Shown here: piece by piece, positions 60,594 to 64,000 of the stretch
Layout: every line of letters begins with the position of its first letter
Numbering within the stretch: the first letter of the stretch is position 1
Source: a virus
Length of the DNA: 64,000 nt
Direction: 5' to 3' (one strand)
Virus record (IMG/VR): IMGVR_UViG_3300047550_001767
Span: 24,674-88,673 of that record
Translations under genes and position numbers: made by a program
The notes under the pieces: model-generated
The model's input: only the letters and a program-made list of their open reading frames with translations
Databases searched by the model: none
What the model was told of the DNA's origin: nothing

Positions 60594-60644
60594 TAAAAAA
60601 ATAAGTCCGAGCGAAGCGAGGACTTAGACAAACGAAGTTTGTCT
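60594..60644 (-). terminator. Tandem hairpins plus U-tract; probable intrinsic terminator of the gp26/gp51 transcript
   Basis: Immediately after the 60645 stop on the minus strand: AGACAAAC-TTC-GTTTGTCT, then TAAGTCC...GGACTTA followed by TTTTTTT. Confidence 0.55.
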
Positions 60645-60874
60645 TTAAAAGAATGGCAACTGAGTTTTCTTAGTAATGTCCATATGCTCATCTACTAATT
60701 CTGCTAAATGTTTTCTTTCTTGATAAGACATGTTAAGGACATCTTCATAGGTCGCACTGCCTCTCATATACCAAGCCATGGATAATGCGTTCTTTTTTAT
60801 ACCCTGAACCTCAAGTTCCATATTTTCAACTAACTTCTTTATATCTTCAGGGTTAGCCGTCAGAAGTCTTAGCC
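60645..60874 (-). CDS. gp51-like baseplate-hub/tail assembly chaperone segment, probably translated as a -1 frameshift extension of the upstream gene (alternative start ATG 60821)
   Basis: WYMRG...Y..V.NMS..ER...FF motif. Frame is open across the upstream gene's stop, and T TTT TTC lies at 60875-60881. Confidence 0.7.
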
Positions 60875-61693
60875 GAAAAAATCTGATGCGTTGAGAGTAT
60901 ATGGTTGTTGATATTCGTTGCTGCAATTAGTACATTTAATTTCTAAAGGTTTTAATTCAGTACTATTTTTAAGATTTGCATTATGGTCACGAATTGCAAT
61001 ATAAATGCTACCATCGCAGTTATGTAAGAAATCATCAATAAATTCTTTTTCGGTAACTGTGGTGGTTGGAGTTTCTATATAATCTATTGTGTTACTGATT
61101 ATTTTCATGGTTGCTTCAGTAATATCACGTACAGCGTTTTGTGTTACTTTTGCCTTTTCATCAACATTTTCAATAGTTTCAATATTGGCATATACTTTTT
61201 GAATATTAAATTGATCAGTAGCAGCCTGATTCATTTCTTTATAAGTCAGTGGTCTAAACTTTATTTTAAGATCATTGACTGCTAACGGGGTATCATAATC
61301 ACCCTGCTTCATTTGTGCTAATACATTTAATAAGTTTAACCCAAATCTTTCACTATTTTCGCACTTAGGACAAGTTGTATCAATTTCTAATGTCTCTTGG
61401 CCACCTGCTGCTCTAATAGCAATTAATACAGCATCTAGATCGTTAGCATTTAAACGCCATGGGTCTTTAATTGCCGGTACGCAACTTTTAATAAGATCAG
61501 TTATTGCTGACCCGTTAAACAATGCGTCAGGAGTCCTTACAGTAATTTCATCTATTGCAGTCATGGGATATACTGGTAATTCCCCTGATTCAGGCATTTC
61601 TAATACGCCTGGCTGATATCCTTTACCTGCGCTCGGTAATTTAAAATGAACTGCTGGTCTACGAAAAAACTGCTTTAGTGGATTATTCTCCAT
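60869..61693 (-). CDS. Baseplate hub/tail assembly chaperone (T4 gp26-like)
   Basis: NPL..FFR.P....LPS.G..Y, PMTA.DE, D.DA.LIAIR.A, two CxxC pairs (CPKC, CTNC), terminal DFF; AGAGGA RBS. Confidence 0.8.
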   Translation of the reverse strand: MENNPLKQFFRRPAVHFKLPSAGKGYQPGVLEMPESGELPVYPMTAIDEITVRTPDALFNGSAITDLIKSCVPAIKDPWRLNANDLDAVLIAIRAAGGQETLEIDTTCPKCENSERFGLNLLNVLAQMKQGDYDTPLAVNDLKIKFRPLTYKEMNQAATDQFNIQKVYANIETIENVDEKAKVTQNAVRDITEATMKIISNTIDYIETPTTTVTEKEFIDDFLHNCDGSIYIAIRDHNANLKNSTELKPLEIKCTNCSNEYQQPYTLNASDFFG

Positions 61694-61728
61694 ATTAATT
61701 CCTCTTTAAATATTGGGTATTTTGTAAC

Positions 61729-61736
61729 TATAAATA
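61729..61736 (+). promoter_or_regulatory. T4-type late promoter TATAAATA for the tape-measure gene
   Basis: Exact consensus ~47 nt upstream of ATG 61783. Confidence 0.65.
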
Positions 61737-61742
61737 GTGTTG

Positions 61743-61750
61743 TATTTATA
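61743..61750 (-). promoter_or_regulatory. T4-type late promoter TATAAATA for the gp26-like gene
   Basis: Exact consensus on the minus strand ~50 nt upstream of ATG 61693. Confidence 0.65.
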
Positions 61751-61782
61751 AAATCCAAAAACCCTGTAAAAAAAGGTAGGTT

Positions 61783-64000
61783 ATGGCAGAACTTGATGTT
61801 GATGAATTAAATGATTCGTTAAGACTTTTAACACAAACAGTTAGAGACTTATCTAGCCAATTAGGTGCCTCAACCGCTGCAAGTTTGGGCGCTACAAAAG
61901 CCTATAAAGCAAATTATGATGCTACCGGAAGAGCCAATCAAAATATAGATGGATTGGCACGCAGTACCAAGAACCTTACAGAAGCAGAATTAGCAAGATT
62001 AGAGGCACAGAAAAAGATTAGACAAGCAGAAATGCACTTGTCTGATGCAACAGACAAAGCAAAAGATTCTCTTGGTAGTTTCGGTAAAGCAATATTAGAT
62101 ACAAATGTTAAGTTAGACAATTACGGCGAAGCGTTAAGCCAAGCAGGTGACGCTGCTTTTGCATTTGGTAAAGCATTTGGACCACTGGGAGCATTGATAG
62201 GTGGTGTTGTTAAGGGCTTTACTATGCTCATGGAAGCCAATTTAAAGATAACACAGGGTTATCTTGACGGCAAAGATGCACTTAACAAAATGGGCGGCGC
62301 TGGAAGCCATACAGTCGCTTCACTACAAAAAATGGCATTGGAAGCGGACCTTAATGCTGAAACATTAAACAGAATGATTAAACCTATGCAGGGCATGGGT
62401 TCAAGCATAATGGCATTAGGTTCTACAGCAGGTGATAGTCAAAAAGAATTTGCAAAATTAATTCAAGCGACAGCAGAAGAACGTAAGCAAATGCAACGTC
62501 TTGGTATTAACCAAGAGCAAATGATGCAAGGTACAGCGGACTACTTGCAGTTACAATCAATGTCTGGTCGCAGTCTAAAAGCAGAAAATATTGATAGAGA
62601 AAAACTAAGAAAGGCAAGTCAAGAATATCAAGTTAACTTAATGGATTTGGCTGCTTTAACGGGCAAAGATGTTAATGAATTAAAAGAAAAACAAAAAGCA
62701 ATGATGATGGATCGACAGGTCCAATTGAAAACAATTGCTGATACACTTAAAGAAAAACAACTTAGAGAAGCGGCAGCAAAAGAAACTGACGCAGGAAGAA
62801 AAGCAGAGTTACTAGCAAAGGCAGATGCTTTAAAAGCAGAAATAGAAAATAGAAATAAGGCATTCGCAAGTTTAGCAGGCGCACCAGAAGCATTACGTAA
62901 AGGTATTCAACAATTAACAACTGGAACAATATCGGGCGCAGACGCACAAAAATTAGCACGTTTGGGTTTACAAAAAGATATTGATGAATTTAACAAAACA
63001 ATTAAAAATGGTGGCGATCAAGCAAAGGCTGCTGCTAAACTACAAGACGCATATCAAAGAGCGCAAGAAAAAGCAATCACAACAGTAGGCAGATCAGCAG
63101 CGATTAATGAAGAAGTTGCCAAAAACTATGCCTTAAACAGTGAAAAAGATTTAGAAACTGCTGGACAAAGAGTTGGGCAAAGTTACGAAAAAGACCTTGA
63201 ACTACAAAGAAAAAAGAGAGCAGACGCTCAAAAAGAAGGCAAAGACGCTGCTGCTGACGCCGCAGCAAACGCTCAAGAATTAAACATTCAGGCTACAAAA
63301 GGATTAGAAAAATTAATATCTGCCTTTAACCCACTAACAGGTGGAATGATTGCCTTAACTGCTGCTGTAGCAGCAGCAACGTTAGCATTATCTGTAATTG
63401 CTAAAAAAGGATTATTAGGTGGCGCAGGCGGCGGTTTAGAAGGCGGTATAAAGGGAGTAGCAGGAAAAATATTTGGTGGTGGCGGTGCAGGCCCATCCGT
63501 TGCAGGAGCGGGAGCAAAAGCAGCAGGGGCAGGGGCAGGCGGCGCCGGCGCAGTTGTTGAACAGTTAGGTGGTAAGGGCGGTGGAATGTTGGAGGGGGCA
63601 GCAAAGGGCCTCACAGCATTTGCTAACCCGCAAGTTGTATTAGGTGCAGCAGGATTAGGAGCAGCAATTACAGCAATTGGCGCCGGCATTGCTGGCGCAA
63701 CATGGATAATGGGCAAAGCCTTACCTTCACTAGCAGGCGGATTAAAAGCCTTTGAAGAATTGGATGGCAATAAACTTATTGCTACAGGTAAAGGTATATT
63801 AGCGTTAGGAGGAGGACTTGCTGTATTTGGTGCTGGAGGCGCAGCAGCAGGCATCGGCGGCATTATTGGCGGATTAGGAGAAAAATTCGGTAAGGCACTT
63901 GGAATGGACGGTCCATTCAAGAAACTTCAAGAATTTAGTAAATTAGATATTGATGCGCCAAAAGTAAAAGCAAATGCAGAAGCATTTATGGCCTTTAATA
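61783..64000 (+). CDS. Tail tape-measure-like protein (5' part, runs off window)
   Basis: Not in ORF track because no stop was reached. Manual translation MAELDVDELNDSLRLL..., open in all segments checked. Ala/Gly/Leu/Lys-rich helical composition with LAALTG and hydrophobic Gly/Ala stretches; adjacent to the chaperone pair; AGGTAGG RBS. Confidence 0.75.
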   Translation, partial: MAELDVDELNDSLRLLTQTVRDLSSQLGASTAASLGATKAYKANYDATGRANQNIDGLARSTKNLTEAELARLEAQKKIRQAEMHLSDATDKAKDSLGSFGKAILDTNVKLDNYGEALSQAGDAAFAFGKAFGPLGALIGGVVKGFTMLMEANLKITQGYLDGKDALNKMGGAGSHTVASLQKMALEADLNAETLNRMIKPMQGMGSSIMALGSTAGDSQKEFAKLIQATAEERKQMQRLGINQEQMMQGTADYLQLQSMSGRSLKAENIDREKLRKASQEYQVNLMDLAALTGKDVNELKEKQKAMMMDRQVQLKTIADTLKEKQLREAAAKETDAGRKAELLAKADALKAEIENRNKAFASLAGAPEALRKGIQQLTTGTISGADAQKLARLGLQKDIDEFNKTIKNGGDQAKAAAKLQDAYQRAQEKAITTVGRSAAINEEVAKNYALNSEKDLETAGQRVGQSYEKDLELQRKKRADAQKEGKDAAADAAANAQELNIQATKGLEKLISAFNPLTGGMIALTAAVAAATLALSVIAKKGLLGGAGGGLEGGIKGVAGKIFGGGGAGPSVAGAGAKAAGAGAGGAGAVVEQLGGKGGGMLEGAAKGLTAFANPQVVLGAAGLGAAITAIGAGIAGATWIMGKALPSLAGGLKAFEELDGNKLIATGKGILALGGGLAVFGAGGAAAGIGGIIGGLGEKFGKALGMDGPFKKLQEFSKLDIDAPKVKANAEAFMAFN

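What the first reader, a model, noticed from the sequence alone, without database searches (positions are those of the whole stretch)
60645..61693. Predicted -1 programmed frameshift fusing gp26-like and gp51-like chaperones (lambda G/GT logic in a T4-type phage)
Seen (minus strand): ...TCA GAT TTT TTC GGC TAA. The heptamer T TTT TTC (60881-60875) is a canonical X XXY YYZ slippery site in the correct phase, one codon before the stop. The -1 frame is open for 76 more codons (RLRLLTANPEDIKKLVENMELEV...WYMRG...LPFF), and its internal ATG (60821) lacks an evident SD. Predicted products are 274 aa and ~349 aa. Known: lambda G/GT and P2 E/E+E' tail chaperones use such -1 shifts next to the tape-measure gene, while T4 gp26 and gp51 are treated as separate genes. 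Here the tape-measure-like gene is adjacent but divergent. Inference: the gp26/gp51-like pair is the G/GT equivalent.
Basis: partly seen in the sequence, partly recalled or inferred. Interest (0 to 1): 0.72.

Follow-up and report, generated by a model that had tools for sequence, protein, structure and literature searches.

The report
Frameshift in giant-phage tail-chaperone gene
One tail-assembly gene of this uncultured freshwater giant T4-related phage very probably makes a short and a long protein because some ribosomes slip back one base on a strictly conserved TTTTTTC, a real but already described kind of signal that phage T4 replaces with two separate genes (26 and 51).

Summary
The minus-strand gp26-like gene (61693-60869, 274 aa, PF12322) ends GAT TTT TTC GGC TAA, and the -1 frame stays open for 76 more codons.

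A programmed -1 frameshift giving 274-aa and 349-aa products is strongly supported by comparison.
- The in-phase heptamer is present in 82 of 82 giant-phage relatives, 11 of 11 further isolates, 81 of 81 cyanophage loci and 74 of 74 further split loci.
- The -1 peptide is conserved from the slip site onward.
- 7 of 55 distinct relatives have no start codon before the conserved core.
- A hairpin usually follows 6-7 nt downstream.
- Natural in-frame fused proteins exist.
- There is a clean split: genomes with the slip site have one gene, while T4 and 6 fused-form loci have a short gene plus a long gene.
- T4 gp51 is gp26 plus this extension.

This is not new in kind. [quoted passage not shown] I could not read that paper, only two papers citing it. 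This scan has also noted the same signal in other genomes. None of the 14 GenBank records inspected annotates the slip. No protein-level evidence exists here.

The parts
61743..61750 (-). TATAAATA, a match to the T4-type late promoter, about 50 nt upstream of the gp26-like start
   Evidence: The window holds 7 matches against 16.5 expected by chance, and 2 of the 7 lie back to back in this 89-nt divergent spacer. That TATAAATA is the T4 late promoter consensus is recalled knowledge, not tested here.
61700..61706 (-). Shine-Dalgarno-like AAGAGGA, 6 nt before the ATG at 61693
   Evidence: Read directly from the sequence.
60869..61693 (-). gp26-like gene, the short product (274 aa, stop included); candidate short tail assembly chaperone form (TAC-N)
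   Evidence: ORF. PF12322 T4_baseplate at 5.3e-17 (62.7 bits, cut-off 24.5). phrog_150 'baseplate hub' at 2.8e-22, covering profile positions 3-232 of 282.
60875..60881 (-). Slippery heptamer T TTT TTC in X XXY YYZ phase; the proposed site of the -1 ribosomal slip
   Evidence: The heptamer is conserved in phase in 82 of 82, 11 of 11 (one as T TTT TTT), 81 of 81 and 74 of 74 loci.
60832..60868 (-). Weak hairpin at the conserved stimulator position: a 7-bp stem starting 6 nt after the heptamer, with a 23-nt loop
   Evidence: -5.6 kcal/mol for the stem alone and -7.5 for the 50-nt segment. The window ranks only 25th of 47 against control windows of the same gene, whereas relatives average -14.8 against -7.75.
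60645..60881 (-). -1 frame extension (Phe-Phe plus 76 codons plus stop); the gp51-type C-terminal domain of the long product (349 aa, TAC-NC)
   Evidence: P0001. The family alignment A2 has invariant F1, F2, R3, L7, W37, R40 and T70. The profile finds 474 proteins at E of 1e-3 or better, including 20 in-frame fused forms of 319-351 aa among the 150 listed.
60595..60644 (-). Two tandem hairpins followed by U7, directly after the extension's stop; terminator-like end of the transcription unit
   Evidence: -15.7 kcal/mol, z = -4.78, 0 of 200 shuffles fold as well. The consensus scan did not call it, because its loop limit is exceeded.
61729..61736 (+). TATAAATA, a late-promoter-like match for the divergent tape-measure-like gene
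61783..63999 (+). Divergent neighbour: a large Gly/Ala-rich tape-measure-like virion protein gene, cut by the end of the contig
   Evidence: ORF. The window end is the contig end. No Pfam or PHROG match. Language-model look-alikes include TMP_3 and PhageMin_Tail clusters at 0.92, which are leads only. The RaK2 counterpart carries the depositor's note 'similar to ... tail tape measure protein'.

Best explanation
The gp26-like gene is the tail/baseplate-hub assembly chaperone gene of a giant T4-related phage, and it is decoded in two ways.

- Most ribosomes read frame 0 and stop one codon after the heptamer, giving the 274-aa short form.
- A fraction slip back one base on U UUU UUC, with tRNA-Phe in both the P and A sites, and continue in the -1 frame for 76 more codons. 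This gives a 349-aa long form that carries a gp51-type C-terminal domain.
- In most relatives a hairpin 6-7 nt downstream probably stimulates the slip. In this window that hairpin is weak.
- The pair is the functional counterpart of T4 gp26 (short) and gp51 (long), and of lambda G/GT. The gene is transcribed late, back to back with the tape-measure-like gene.

Shown here: the anatomy, its conservation, the existence of natural fused forms, and the one-gene versus two-gene split. Inferred: the slip itself, its efficiency, the chaperone role and any binding to the tape measure.
For: (a) Slip site.
- The in-phase heptamer is present in every locus with an intact 3' end: 82 of 82 (window, 78 IMG/VR loci and 3 isolates; 2 further loci are cut by contig ends), 11 of 11 further isolates from PA5oct to a cyanophage, 81 of 81 cyanophage loci and 74 of 74 split loci of a fourth set. 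Together these are 179 nucleotide-distinct cassettes.
- Codon choice exceeds what the protein requires. Elsewhere in the same genes Phe is TTT 351 times and TTC 121 times, and none of 10 other Phe-Phe pairs is TTT-TTC. T4 gp26 keeps Phe-Phe but writes it TTC TTT.

(b) The 0-frame stop wanders (1, 2, 3, 4, 6 or 11 codons after the heptamer), while the -1 peptide is conserved from the first codon after the slip. Arg is invariant there.

(c) Start codons. 7 of 55 distinct relatives have no ATG, GTG or TTG between the heptamer and the conserved core. Only 9 of 55 have an ATG beside the stop. Gene callers give ragged starts for the small ORF.

(d) Hairpin.
- The 60 nt after the site fold to -14.8 against -7.75 kcal/mol in control windows (n = 55, p = 3e-10).
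- Cyanophages give -15.0 against -8.95 (n = 64), and the fourth set -14.0 against -8.1.
- The named helix has 68% of cells paired against 32-50% when slid, and 54 double-change cells against 26.5 +/- 3.9 in shuffles.

(e) Fused forms. 20 of the 150 listed profile hits are single ORFs of 319-351 aa with the extension at the C-terminus. All 10 of those tested carry PF12322 at the N-terminus.

(f) Gene number.
- PF12322 copies per genome: T4 has 2; S-RSM4, 121Q, Atu_ph07, RaK2, PA5oct and two 100%-complete IMG/VR genomes have 1 each.
- Of 80 further loci, 74 are split with one N-domain gene, and 6 are fused with two N-domain genes, one short and one long.
- A tandem duplicate in one genome keeps the slip site and extension in both copies.

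(g) Link to gp51. T4 gp51 is PF12322 (3.9e-52) plus a tail. The S-RSM4 extension hits phrog_634 at 1e-28 and phrog_150 positions 231-280. The profile-profile comparison gives P = 1.2e-4.
Against: - There is no protein, ribosome-profiling or reporter evidence for any member in what I could read.
- The window's own downstream hairpin is weak (-6.8 kcal/mol, rank 25 of 47).
- RNAalifold finds no single consensus structure, because the 3' arm sits in different registers in different lineages.
- I derived the helix tested from the same sequences, within a coding region.
- The many loci are related, so the counts are not independent events.
- The extension-to-gp51 homology is distant for this clade: there is no direct phrog_634 match in the window's contig or in 5 giant-phage genomes.
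- A run of six T could also support some transcriptional slippage.
- The tape-measure-like gene is divergent, not downstream as in lambda.
- The contig is only about 26% of a genome, so a separate long-form gene elsewhere in this phage cannot be excluded.
Confidence: 0.88

Rival explanations
1. The downstream frame is a separate small gene, translated on its own by re-initiation or coupling at the stop codon or from an internal ATG (60821 in the window). The heptamer is conserved only because the protein ends in Phe-Phe.
For: 9 of 55 distinct relatives have an ATG overlapping or next to the stop, as in 121Q, Atu_ph07 and Phosso. All 14 GenBank records inspected annotate two separate genes or nothing downstream, never a join. 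T4 gp26 also ends with Phe-Phe, so part of the conservation is at the protein level.
Against: 7 of 55 relatives have no start codon at all before the conserved core. In the window the first ATG would drop 20 conserved residues and has no Shine-Dalgarno match. The invariant Arg codon directly after the slip and the strict NNT TTT TTC codon choice are not explained. Natural in-frame fusions exist, and two-gene genomes lack the free small ORF.
Confidence: 0.04
2. The long form is made by transcriptional slippage: RNA polymerase adds one U in the T6 run, giving a minority of mRNAs with the two frames fused. Ribosomal slippage is not involved.
For: The site is a homopolymer run, and a one-base insertion would give the same frame change. 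No RNA data could be examined: no listed holder is on record as RNA, and the one 'RNA?' run that was laid is probably DNA and does not cover the site.
Against: The run is held at exactly six T followed by C G in 74 of 74, 81 of 81 and 82 of 82 loci, rather than drifting longer. From recalled literature, functional polymerase slippage sites are usually longer runs. A hairpin 6-7 nt downstream is the classical ribosomal stimulator geometry. The heptamer is always in X XXY YYZ phase, which matters to a ribosome but not to a polymerase.
Confidence: 0.06
3. The apparent frameshift is an artefact: a homopolymer sequencing or assembly error in a single long gene, or a decaying pseudogene.
For: Homopolymer runs are error-prone. 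The window comes from a metagenome assembly.
Against: The same arrangement, with a 0-frame stop, occurs in 179 distinct cassettes, including finished isolate genomes. Contigs from three other studies show no indel at the site. Genuine single-ORF forms look different at the junction, with one Phe and no T-run phase.
Confidence: 0.01

Closest known systems
[quoted passage not shown] The paper is not held. I saw only its title and what two citing papers say: PMC10274946 and PMC12846349, passages.
   Same: The same protein family (PF12322) forms the shared N-terminal part, and the long form carries the extra C-terminal domain. The citing papers state that some T4-like phages carry a short gene plus a long fused gene instead of frameshifting, and that poly-T runs are the -1 signals in the short-form (TAC-N) genes of T4-like phages. 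Both points match what I find.
   Different: T4 itself has two divergent genes and no slip site (its gp26 writes Phe-Phe as TTC TTT). This phage has one gene with the slip site. Whether the paper covers the giant RaK2/121Q/PA5oct/Atu_ph07-like phages and this freshwater clade, I could not check.
Lambda gpG / gpGT, and the conserved -1 frameshift in tail assembly chaperone genes of long-tailed phages (Xu, Hendrix, Duda, Mol Cell 2004; recalled, and seen only in reference lists)
   Same: Two products share an N-terminus. [quoted passage not shown] The extension has no start codon of its own. The gene is adjacent to the tape-measure(-like) gene.
   Different: No sequence similarity was detected. 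The shared part is much larger (274 aa) and has two CxxC pairs. The tape-measure-like gene is divergent, not immediately downstream. In T4 the family is linked to hub assembly (Leiman et al. 2010, PMC3004832, Table 2; passages).
Cyanophage g26 and the small ORF annotated 'g51 baseplate hub assembly catalyst' (for example S-RSM4, NC_013085)
   Same: The same cassette: AAT TTT TTC GGA TAG, a -1 extension of 63-65 aa, a hairpin 7 nt downstream, and one PF12322 gene per genome.
   Different: The cyanophage extension is shorter and matches gp51 models directly (1e-28). The window's extension has about 14 extra residues and matches only at the profile-profile level. In S-RSM4 only the last 44 codons are annotated as a gene.
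Natural fused long forms with a separate short gene in uncultured relatives (A4 family; loci L177-L183)
   Same: The same two domains in the same order, with the extension profile matching at E values from 6.4e-23 to 5.7e-14 among the listed hits.
   Different: They are single ORFs with one Phe at the junction and no slip site. Each has a second, extension-less PF12322-like gene in tandem, in the order long-short in L177 and short-long in L179-L183.

Membership tests
T4 gp26/gp51 family (Pfam PF12322 T4_baseplate; phrog_150) | The N-terminal part matches the family model above its curated cut-off | tested here: met
   PF12322 at 5.3e-17, 62.7 bits against a cut-off of 24.5. phrog_150 at 2.8e-22 and 1.7e-23 in the six-frame search.
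T4 gp26/gp51 family (Pfam PF12322 T4_baseplate; phrog_150) | Conserved Cys pairs (CxxC) in the shared domain | tested here: met
   C108, P109, C111, C254 and C257 are nearly invariant in A3. The fused-form family A4 has four invariant Cys.
T4 gp26/gp51 family (Pfam PF12322 T4_baseplate; phrog_150) | The long form carries the gp51-type C-terminal domain (phrog_634; phrog_150 positions about 231-280) | tested here: inconclusive
   There is no direct model hit for the window's extension or in 5 giant-phage genomes. Profile-profile comparison gives P = 1.2e-4, Prob 55%, collinear, with controls at 0.014 or more. The position is the same, right after the Phe-Phe that ends the PF12322 domain. The feature is met outright for cyanophage S-RSM4.
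Tail assembly chaperone genes with programmed -1 frameshift (lambda G/GT type; TAC-N / TAC-NC) | [quoted passage not shown] | tested here: met
   82 of 82, 11 of 11, 81 of 81 and 74 of 74.
Tail assembly chaperone genes with programmed -1 frameshift (lambda G/GT type; TAC-N / TAC-NC) | The -1 frame is open, conserved as protein, and lacks its own initiation signal | tested here: met
   7 of 55 distinct relatives have no start codon before the core.
Tail assembly chaperone genes with programmed -1 frameshift (lambda G/GT type; TAC-N / TAC-NC) | The gene lies immediately upstream of, and co-oriented with, the tape measure gene | tested here: not met
   The tape-measure-like gene is adjacent but divergent. 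T4 has the same divergent layout for gene 26 against genes 51-27-28-29.
Tail assembly chaperone genes with programmed -1 frameshift (lambda G/GT type; TAC-N / TAC-NC) | Both products are actually made, with the long form in the minority | not testable with these tools
   No proteomic or ribosome-profiling data were reachable, and no RNA holder is listed.
Tail assembly chaperone genes with programmed -1 frameshift (lambda G/GT type; TAC-N / TAC-NC) | Tail-assembly-chaperone fold of the shared part and binding to the tape measure protein | not testable with these tools
PDB profile searches gave nothing below E = 0.07.

The most novel reading that the evidence does not exclude
The slip-site solution and the two-gene solution have replaced each other several times within one protein family, and the RNA stimulator has been rebuilt in different registers.

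- At least three two-gene layouts occur: divergent in T4, long-short tandem in L177, and short-long tandem in L179-L183. One genome duplicated the whole frameshifting cassette.
- In one lineage GCUUCU pairs with AGAAGC. In another, GGAUCU pairs with AGAUCC two codons closer, with matching amino-acid changes on both arms.
- The window's own lineage has nearly lost the hairpin.

If the 2022 paper does not cover the giant phages, this clade (RaK2, 121Q, PA5oct, Atu_ph07 and their freshwater relatives) is an undescribed and wholly unannotated extension of the rule. It would also be a natural experiment on how the short-to-long ratio is set.
Probability: 0.4. Interest if true: 0.45.

Novelty: new member of a known kind. 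Interest (0 to 1): 0.33.

Why it matters
It shows that T4-type and giant myoviruses follow the same rule as lambda-like phages: a short and a long chaperone from one start. [quoted passage not shown]

The practical value lies in annotation.
- None of the 14 isolate records I inspected joins the two frames.
- Cyanophage 'g51' is annotated as a 44-codon fragment.
- Some records give the gp26-like gene unrelated names such as 'portal protein' or a metal-transporting ATPase.

The strict TTTTTTC-G signature makes the site easy to find automatically. The one-gene versus two-gene split offers cultured systems (121Q, RaK2, PA5oct, cyanophages against T4) for testing why the product ratio matters.

Tried and rejected
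- RNAalifold on the 51-sequence alignment A1 gave no consensus structure. I replaced it with per-sequence folding against control windows and with pair counts on a helix that I named.
- Single-sequence hhalign of A2, A3 and A4 against T4 gp51 and gp26 was uninformative. Even the known gp26 relation scored only Prob 21%. I replaced it with family models and a profile-profile run with controls.
- phrog_634 found nothing in the window's contig. In 5 giant-phage genomes it gave only one hit, E = 0.028 at an unrelated place in Atu_ph07 with stops inside, which I treat as chance.
- Pfam, PHROGs and PDB searches of the extension gave only chance-level hits. 16 of 48 A2 members match phrog_18291, the unnamed RaK2-type small-ORF family.
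- The search for related loci with the single fused protein P0021 found no relative. The alignment A4 did.
- The consensus terminator scan called nothing. The tandem hairpins were folded separately.
- No RNA holder is listed for the stretch, and the laid 'RNA?' run is probably DNA and has no cover at the site. This says nothing about expression.
- Literature. Searches found no held paper that itself describes a gp26/gp51 frameshift. One search found 9 papers (8 listed) citing Vladimirov et al. 2022. That paper itself is not held, so what it covers is known to me only from passages in PMC12846349 and PMC10274946. Supplementary files were not consulted.
- I considered and rejected that the extension is unrelated to gp51, that the site is an assembly error, and that the small ORF is an independent gene (see the rival explanations).
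Full report
WHAT IS THERE

On the minus strand a 274-aa ORF (61693-60869) ends ...TCA GAT TTT TTC GGC TAA. The heptamer T TTT TTC (60881-60875) is in X XXY YYZ phase, one codon before the stop. From the heptamer the -1 frame reads Phe-Phe-Arg and stays open for 78 residues in all, to the stop at 60647-60645.

The surrounding features fit a compact late transcription unit whose last coding sequence is the extension.
- The ORF has a Shine-Dalgarno-like AAGAGGA 6 nt before its ATG.
- About 50 nt upstream lies TATAAATA. A second TATAAATA on the other strand faces the divergent large gene. These are 2 of only 7 copies in the window, against 16.5 expected by chance.
- Directly after the extension's stop come two tandem hairpins and a U7 run (-15.7 kcal/mol, z = -4.8).
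- The window is the 3' part of an 88.7-kb uncultured virus contig, estimated about 26% complete. It recurs in freshwater, reservoir and sediment metagenomes of 10 studies.

IS IT MORE THAN CHANCE?

Within the window, 5 in-phase TTTTTTY heptamers occur in 20,423 codons of long ORFs. Only this one opens a long -1 frame: 78 codons, against 2-6 for the others. Contigs from three other studies bridge the site with no indel listed. One variant contig changes bases at 60868, 60884 and 60893 but not the heptamer.

WHAT THE PROTEINS ARE

The 274-aa protein belongs to PF12322 T4_baseplate (5.3e-17) and to phrog_150 'baseplate hub'. It covers phrog_150 profile positions 3-232 of 282, so it stops where the profile still has about 50 positions left. 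The extension alone matches nothing named.

The nearest isolates, at about 30% identity, are giant myoviruses: 121Q/PBECO4, RaK2, Munch, CBB/GAP32, PA5oct, Atu_ph07, Phosso and SCTP-2. In 50 records the extension's homologue lies immediately after the gp26-like gene, overlapping it by a few bases.

CONSERVATION OF THE SIGNAL

I fetched four sets of loci.
1. 80 IMG/VR relatives of the window protein (37-78% identity) plus 121Q, Atu_ph07 and Phosso. All 82 sequences with an intact 3' end, window included, have the in-phase heptamer; 2 loci are cut by contig ends. There are 55 distinct sequences.
2. 11 further isolates chosen for diversity: PA5oct, RaK2, CBB, GAP32, fHe-Yen9-04, SCTP-2, Serratia BF, RAS14, Munch, Vibrio 2.275.O and cyanophage S-RSM4. 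All 11 have the heptamer, RAS14 as T TTT TTT.
3. S-RSM4 plus 80 cyanophage loci: 81 of 81, with 64 distinct.
4. 80 loci found with the fused-form alignment A4: 74 split forms, all with TTTTTTC followed by G, and 6 fused forms.

Together these give 179 nucleotide-distinct cassettes.

- The preceding codon always ends in T (GAT, AAT, AGT, ACT, CAT, TCT or GGT).
- The Phe-Phe is always TTT TTC. In the rest of the same genes Phe is TTT 351 times and TTC 121 times, and none of 10 other Phe-Phe pairs is TTT-TTC.
- T4 gp26 also ends with Phe-Phe near its C-terminus but writes it TTC TTT, and it has no such site.
- The 0-frame stop lies 1, 2, 3, 4, 6 or 11 codons after the heptamer in different lineages.
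- The -1 peptide is nevertheless conserved from its very first codon. Arg is invariant, and a hydrophobic x-[RK]-L-L stretch follows.

This is the pattern expected if decoding changes frame exactly at the heptamer.

NO INDEPENDENT START

- In 7 of 55 distinct relatives there is no ATG, GTG or TTG between the heptamer and the conserved W-x-M-R-G core, 37 codons in.
- Only 9 of 55 have an ATG beside the stop (the ATGA or TAATG overlaps seen in 121Q, Atu_ph07 and Phosso). These sit behind the T-run with no Shine-Dalgarno match.
- In the window the first ATG is codon 20, and using it would drop 20 conserved residues.
- In the 1.8-billion-protein library the small ORF appears with ragged starts at profile positions 1, 4, 6, 7, 8, 10, 21, 35 and 39. 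This is what gene callers produce when there is no real start.

RNA STIMULATOR

- The 60 nt beginning 3 nt after the heptamer fold far better than same-length windows of the same gene. The means are -14.8 against -7.75 kcal/mol (n = 55, Wilcoxon p = 3e-10), and 67% rank in the best 5%.
- For cyanophages the means are -15.0 against -8.95 (n = 64, p = 3.5e-12). For the 62 cassettes seen only in the fourth set they are -14.0 against -8.1.
- The stem starts 6-7 nt after the heptamer.
- RNAalifold gives no consensus. The 3' arm lies in different registers: GCUUCU with AGAAGC in the main lineage, and GGAUCU with AGAUCC two codons closer in another.
- For the main-lineage helix, 68% of cells pair, against 32-50% with slid partners. 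There are 54 double-change cells against 26.5 +/- 3.9 in shuffles (0 of 500 reach the observed value). The inner pairs show four or five pair types.
- Caveats: I read the helix off these sequences, it lies in coding sequence, and the sequences are related.
- The window itself keeps only a 7-bp outer stem with a 23-nt loop (-5.6 kcal/mol for the stem alone, -7.5 for the 50-nt segment; rank 25 of 47). Here the slip would rest mainly on the heptamer.

THE LONG FORM IS REAL ELSEWHERE

A profile of the extension (A2) finds 474 proteins at E of 1e-3 or better. Among the 150 listed, 20 are single ORFs of 319-351 aa with the extension at their C-terminal end. All 10 that I tested carry PF12322 in front (26-54 bits, cut-off 24.5). 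Their junction has one Phe followed mostly by Arg.

ONE GENE OR TWO

- PF12322 genes per genome: T4 has 2 (genes 26 and 51). S-RSM4, 121Q, Atu_ph07, RaK2, PA5oct and two 100%-complete uncultured giant-phage genomes have 1 each. SCTP-2 has none by this Pfam model, although it has the cassette.
- One 91%-complete genome has 2. They are a tandem duplicate in which both copies keep the heptamer and the extension.
- In the fourth set, each of the 74 split loci has one N-domain gene within +/- 4 kb. Each of the 6 fused loci has two: an extension-less short gene and a long fused gene. The order is long-short in L177/L178 and short-long in L179-L183.
- So a genome has either the slip site or a second gene. 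This is hard to explain unless the slip makes the long form.

LINK TO gp51

- T4 gp51 (249 aa) matches PF12322 over residues 1-201 (3.9e-52) and phrog_150 over positions 13-280. T4 gp26 (208 aa) stops at position 235. gp51 is therefore gp26 plus a tail.
- The S-RSM4 -1 extension matches phrog_634 'baseplate hub assembly catalyst' at 1e-28 and phrog_150 positions 231-280 at 8e-8. GenBank annotates only its last 44 codons as 'g51'.
- The giant-phage extension does not hit these models directly.
- Its profile does align collinearly with a profile of T4-type gp51 C-termini plus cyanophage extensions: P = 1.2e-4, Prob 55%. The reversed template gives 0.24, and 40 column shuffles give a minimum of 0.014.
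- The shared motifs are N-P-[DE]-[DE]-I just after the junction and Y-x(6,7)-M-x(3)-E-R-x(5)-L-[IV]-[DE] near the end.

I regard the 'gp51-like' label as supported, distantly, for this clade.

PRIOR ART AND NOVELTY

My searches for gp26/gp51 with 'frameshift' found no held paper that describes the slip. [quoted passage not shown]

- PMC12846349 cites it for poly-T -1 signals 'in ... TAC-N genes of T4-like phages'.
- PMC10274946 summarises it as: some T4-like phages carry one short gene and one longer fused gene instead of frameshifting.
- The paper itself is not held. I cannot say which clades it covers or whether anything was tested.
- Leiman et al. 2010 list gp26 and gp51 as 'hub assembly chaperones' (PMC3004832, passages).
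- This scan has noted the same signal in 180 earlier findings from at least 173 genomes. Some of those notes said that no paper reports it, a statement that the 2022 paper contradicts.

I therefore class the finding as a new member of a known kind. It is real and well supported, and it is unannotated in every record I inspected. It is not a new mechanism.

WHAT REMAINS INFERRED

- The slip itself and its efficiency.
- The choice between ribosomal and transcriptional slippage.
- The tape-measure identity of the divergent neighbour, which rests only on leads.
- Whether the unsequenced three quarters of this phage genome hold a separate long-form gene. Complete relatives do not.

Noticed in passing
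L083:1471-3620 (IMG/VR contig of 318 kb, 91% complete): The whole cassette is duplicated in tandem. There are two diverged gp26-like genes (38% and 34% identical to the window protein), and each keeps the in-phase TTTTTTC and its own 77-81-codon -1 extension.
   Followed up: partly
L177-L183 (IMG/VR loci): Six loci have an in-frame fused long gene (329-357 codons) plus a separate extension-less short gene in tandem. The order is long-short in L177/L178 and short-long in L179-L183. Together with T4's divergent genes 26 and 51, this makes three different two-gene layouts.
   Followed up: partly
L093:1941-2075 (Synechococcus phage S-RSM4, NC_013085): The ORF annotated 'g51 baseplate hub assembly catalyst' is only the last 44 codons of the 65-codon -1 extension of g26. 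The conserved first 20 residues are left unannotated.
   Followed up: yes
L089 (Yersinia phage fHe-Yen9-04 g243c); hit H33/H97 (Escherichia phage WPEC5): In public records the gp26-like gene carries unrelated product names: 'Lead, cadmium, zinc and mercury transporting ATPase; Copper-translocating P-type ATPase', and 'portal protein'.
   Followed up: no
L092:1941-1947 (Stenotrophomonas phage RAS14): This is the only variant of the slip site seen: T TTT TTT followed by A, instead of T TTT TTC followed by G. The 0-frame stop lies 11 codons later and the -1 extension has 82 codons. The first residue after Phe-Phe is then Tyr, not Arg.
   Followed up: no
L084:7803-7805 (phage T4, junction of genes 26 and 25): In T4 the start of gene 25 overlaps the stop of gene 26 by one base (TAATG). 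Gene 25 therefore lies in the -1 frame relative to gene 26, the same frame relation as the extension in the other phages. T4 also annotates an internal product 26' (the last 95 codons of gene 26).
   Followed up: no
window, whole (7 sites; 61729-61736 + and 61743-61750 -): TATAAATA is depleted in the window, with 7 copies against 16.5 +/- 4.3 expected; all 100 shuffles have at least 7. Two of the 7 copies lie back to back in the 89-nt spacer between the gp26-like gene and the tape-measure-like gene.
   Followed up: partly
window 60595-60644 (-): Two tandem hairpins plus U7 lie right after the extension's stop. As RNA on the minus strand they fold at -15.7 kcal/mol (z = -4.8) and look like the terminator of the late transcript. 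Another first-stage note reads the same stretch as a single-stranded-DNA signal.
   Followed up: partly
window 60600-61800: Near-identical DNA is held by runs from 10 studies of freshwater, reservoir, sediment and aquaculture metagenomes, so this phage lineage is widespread in fresh water.
   Followed up: no
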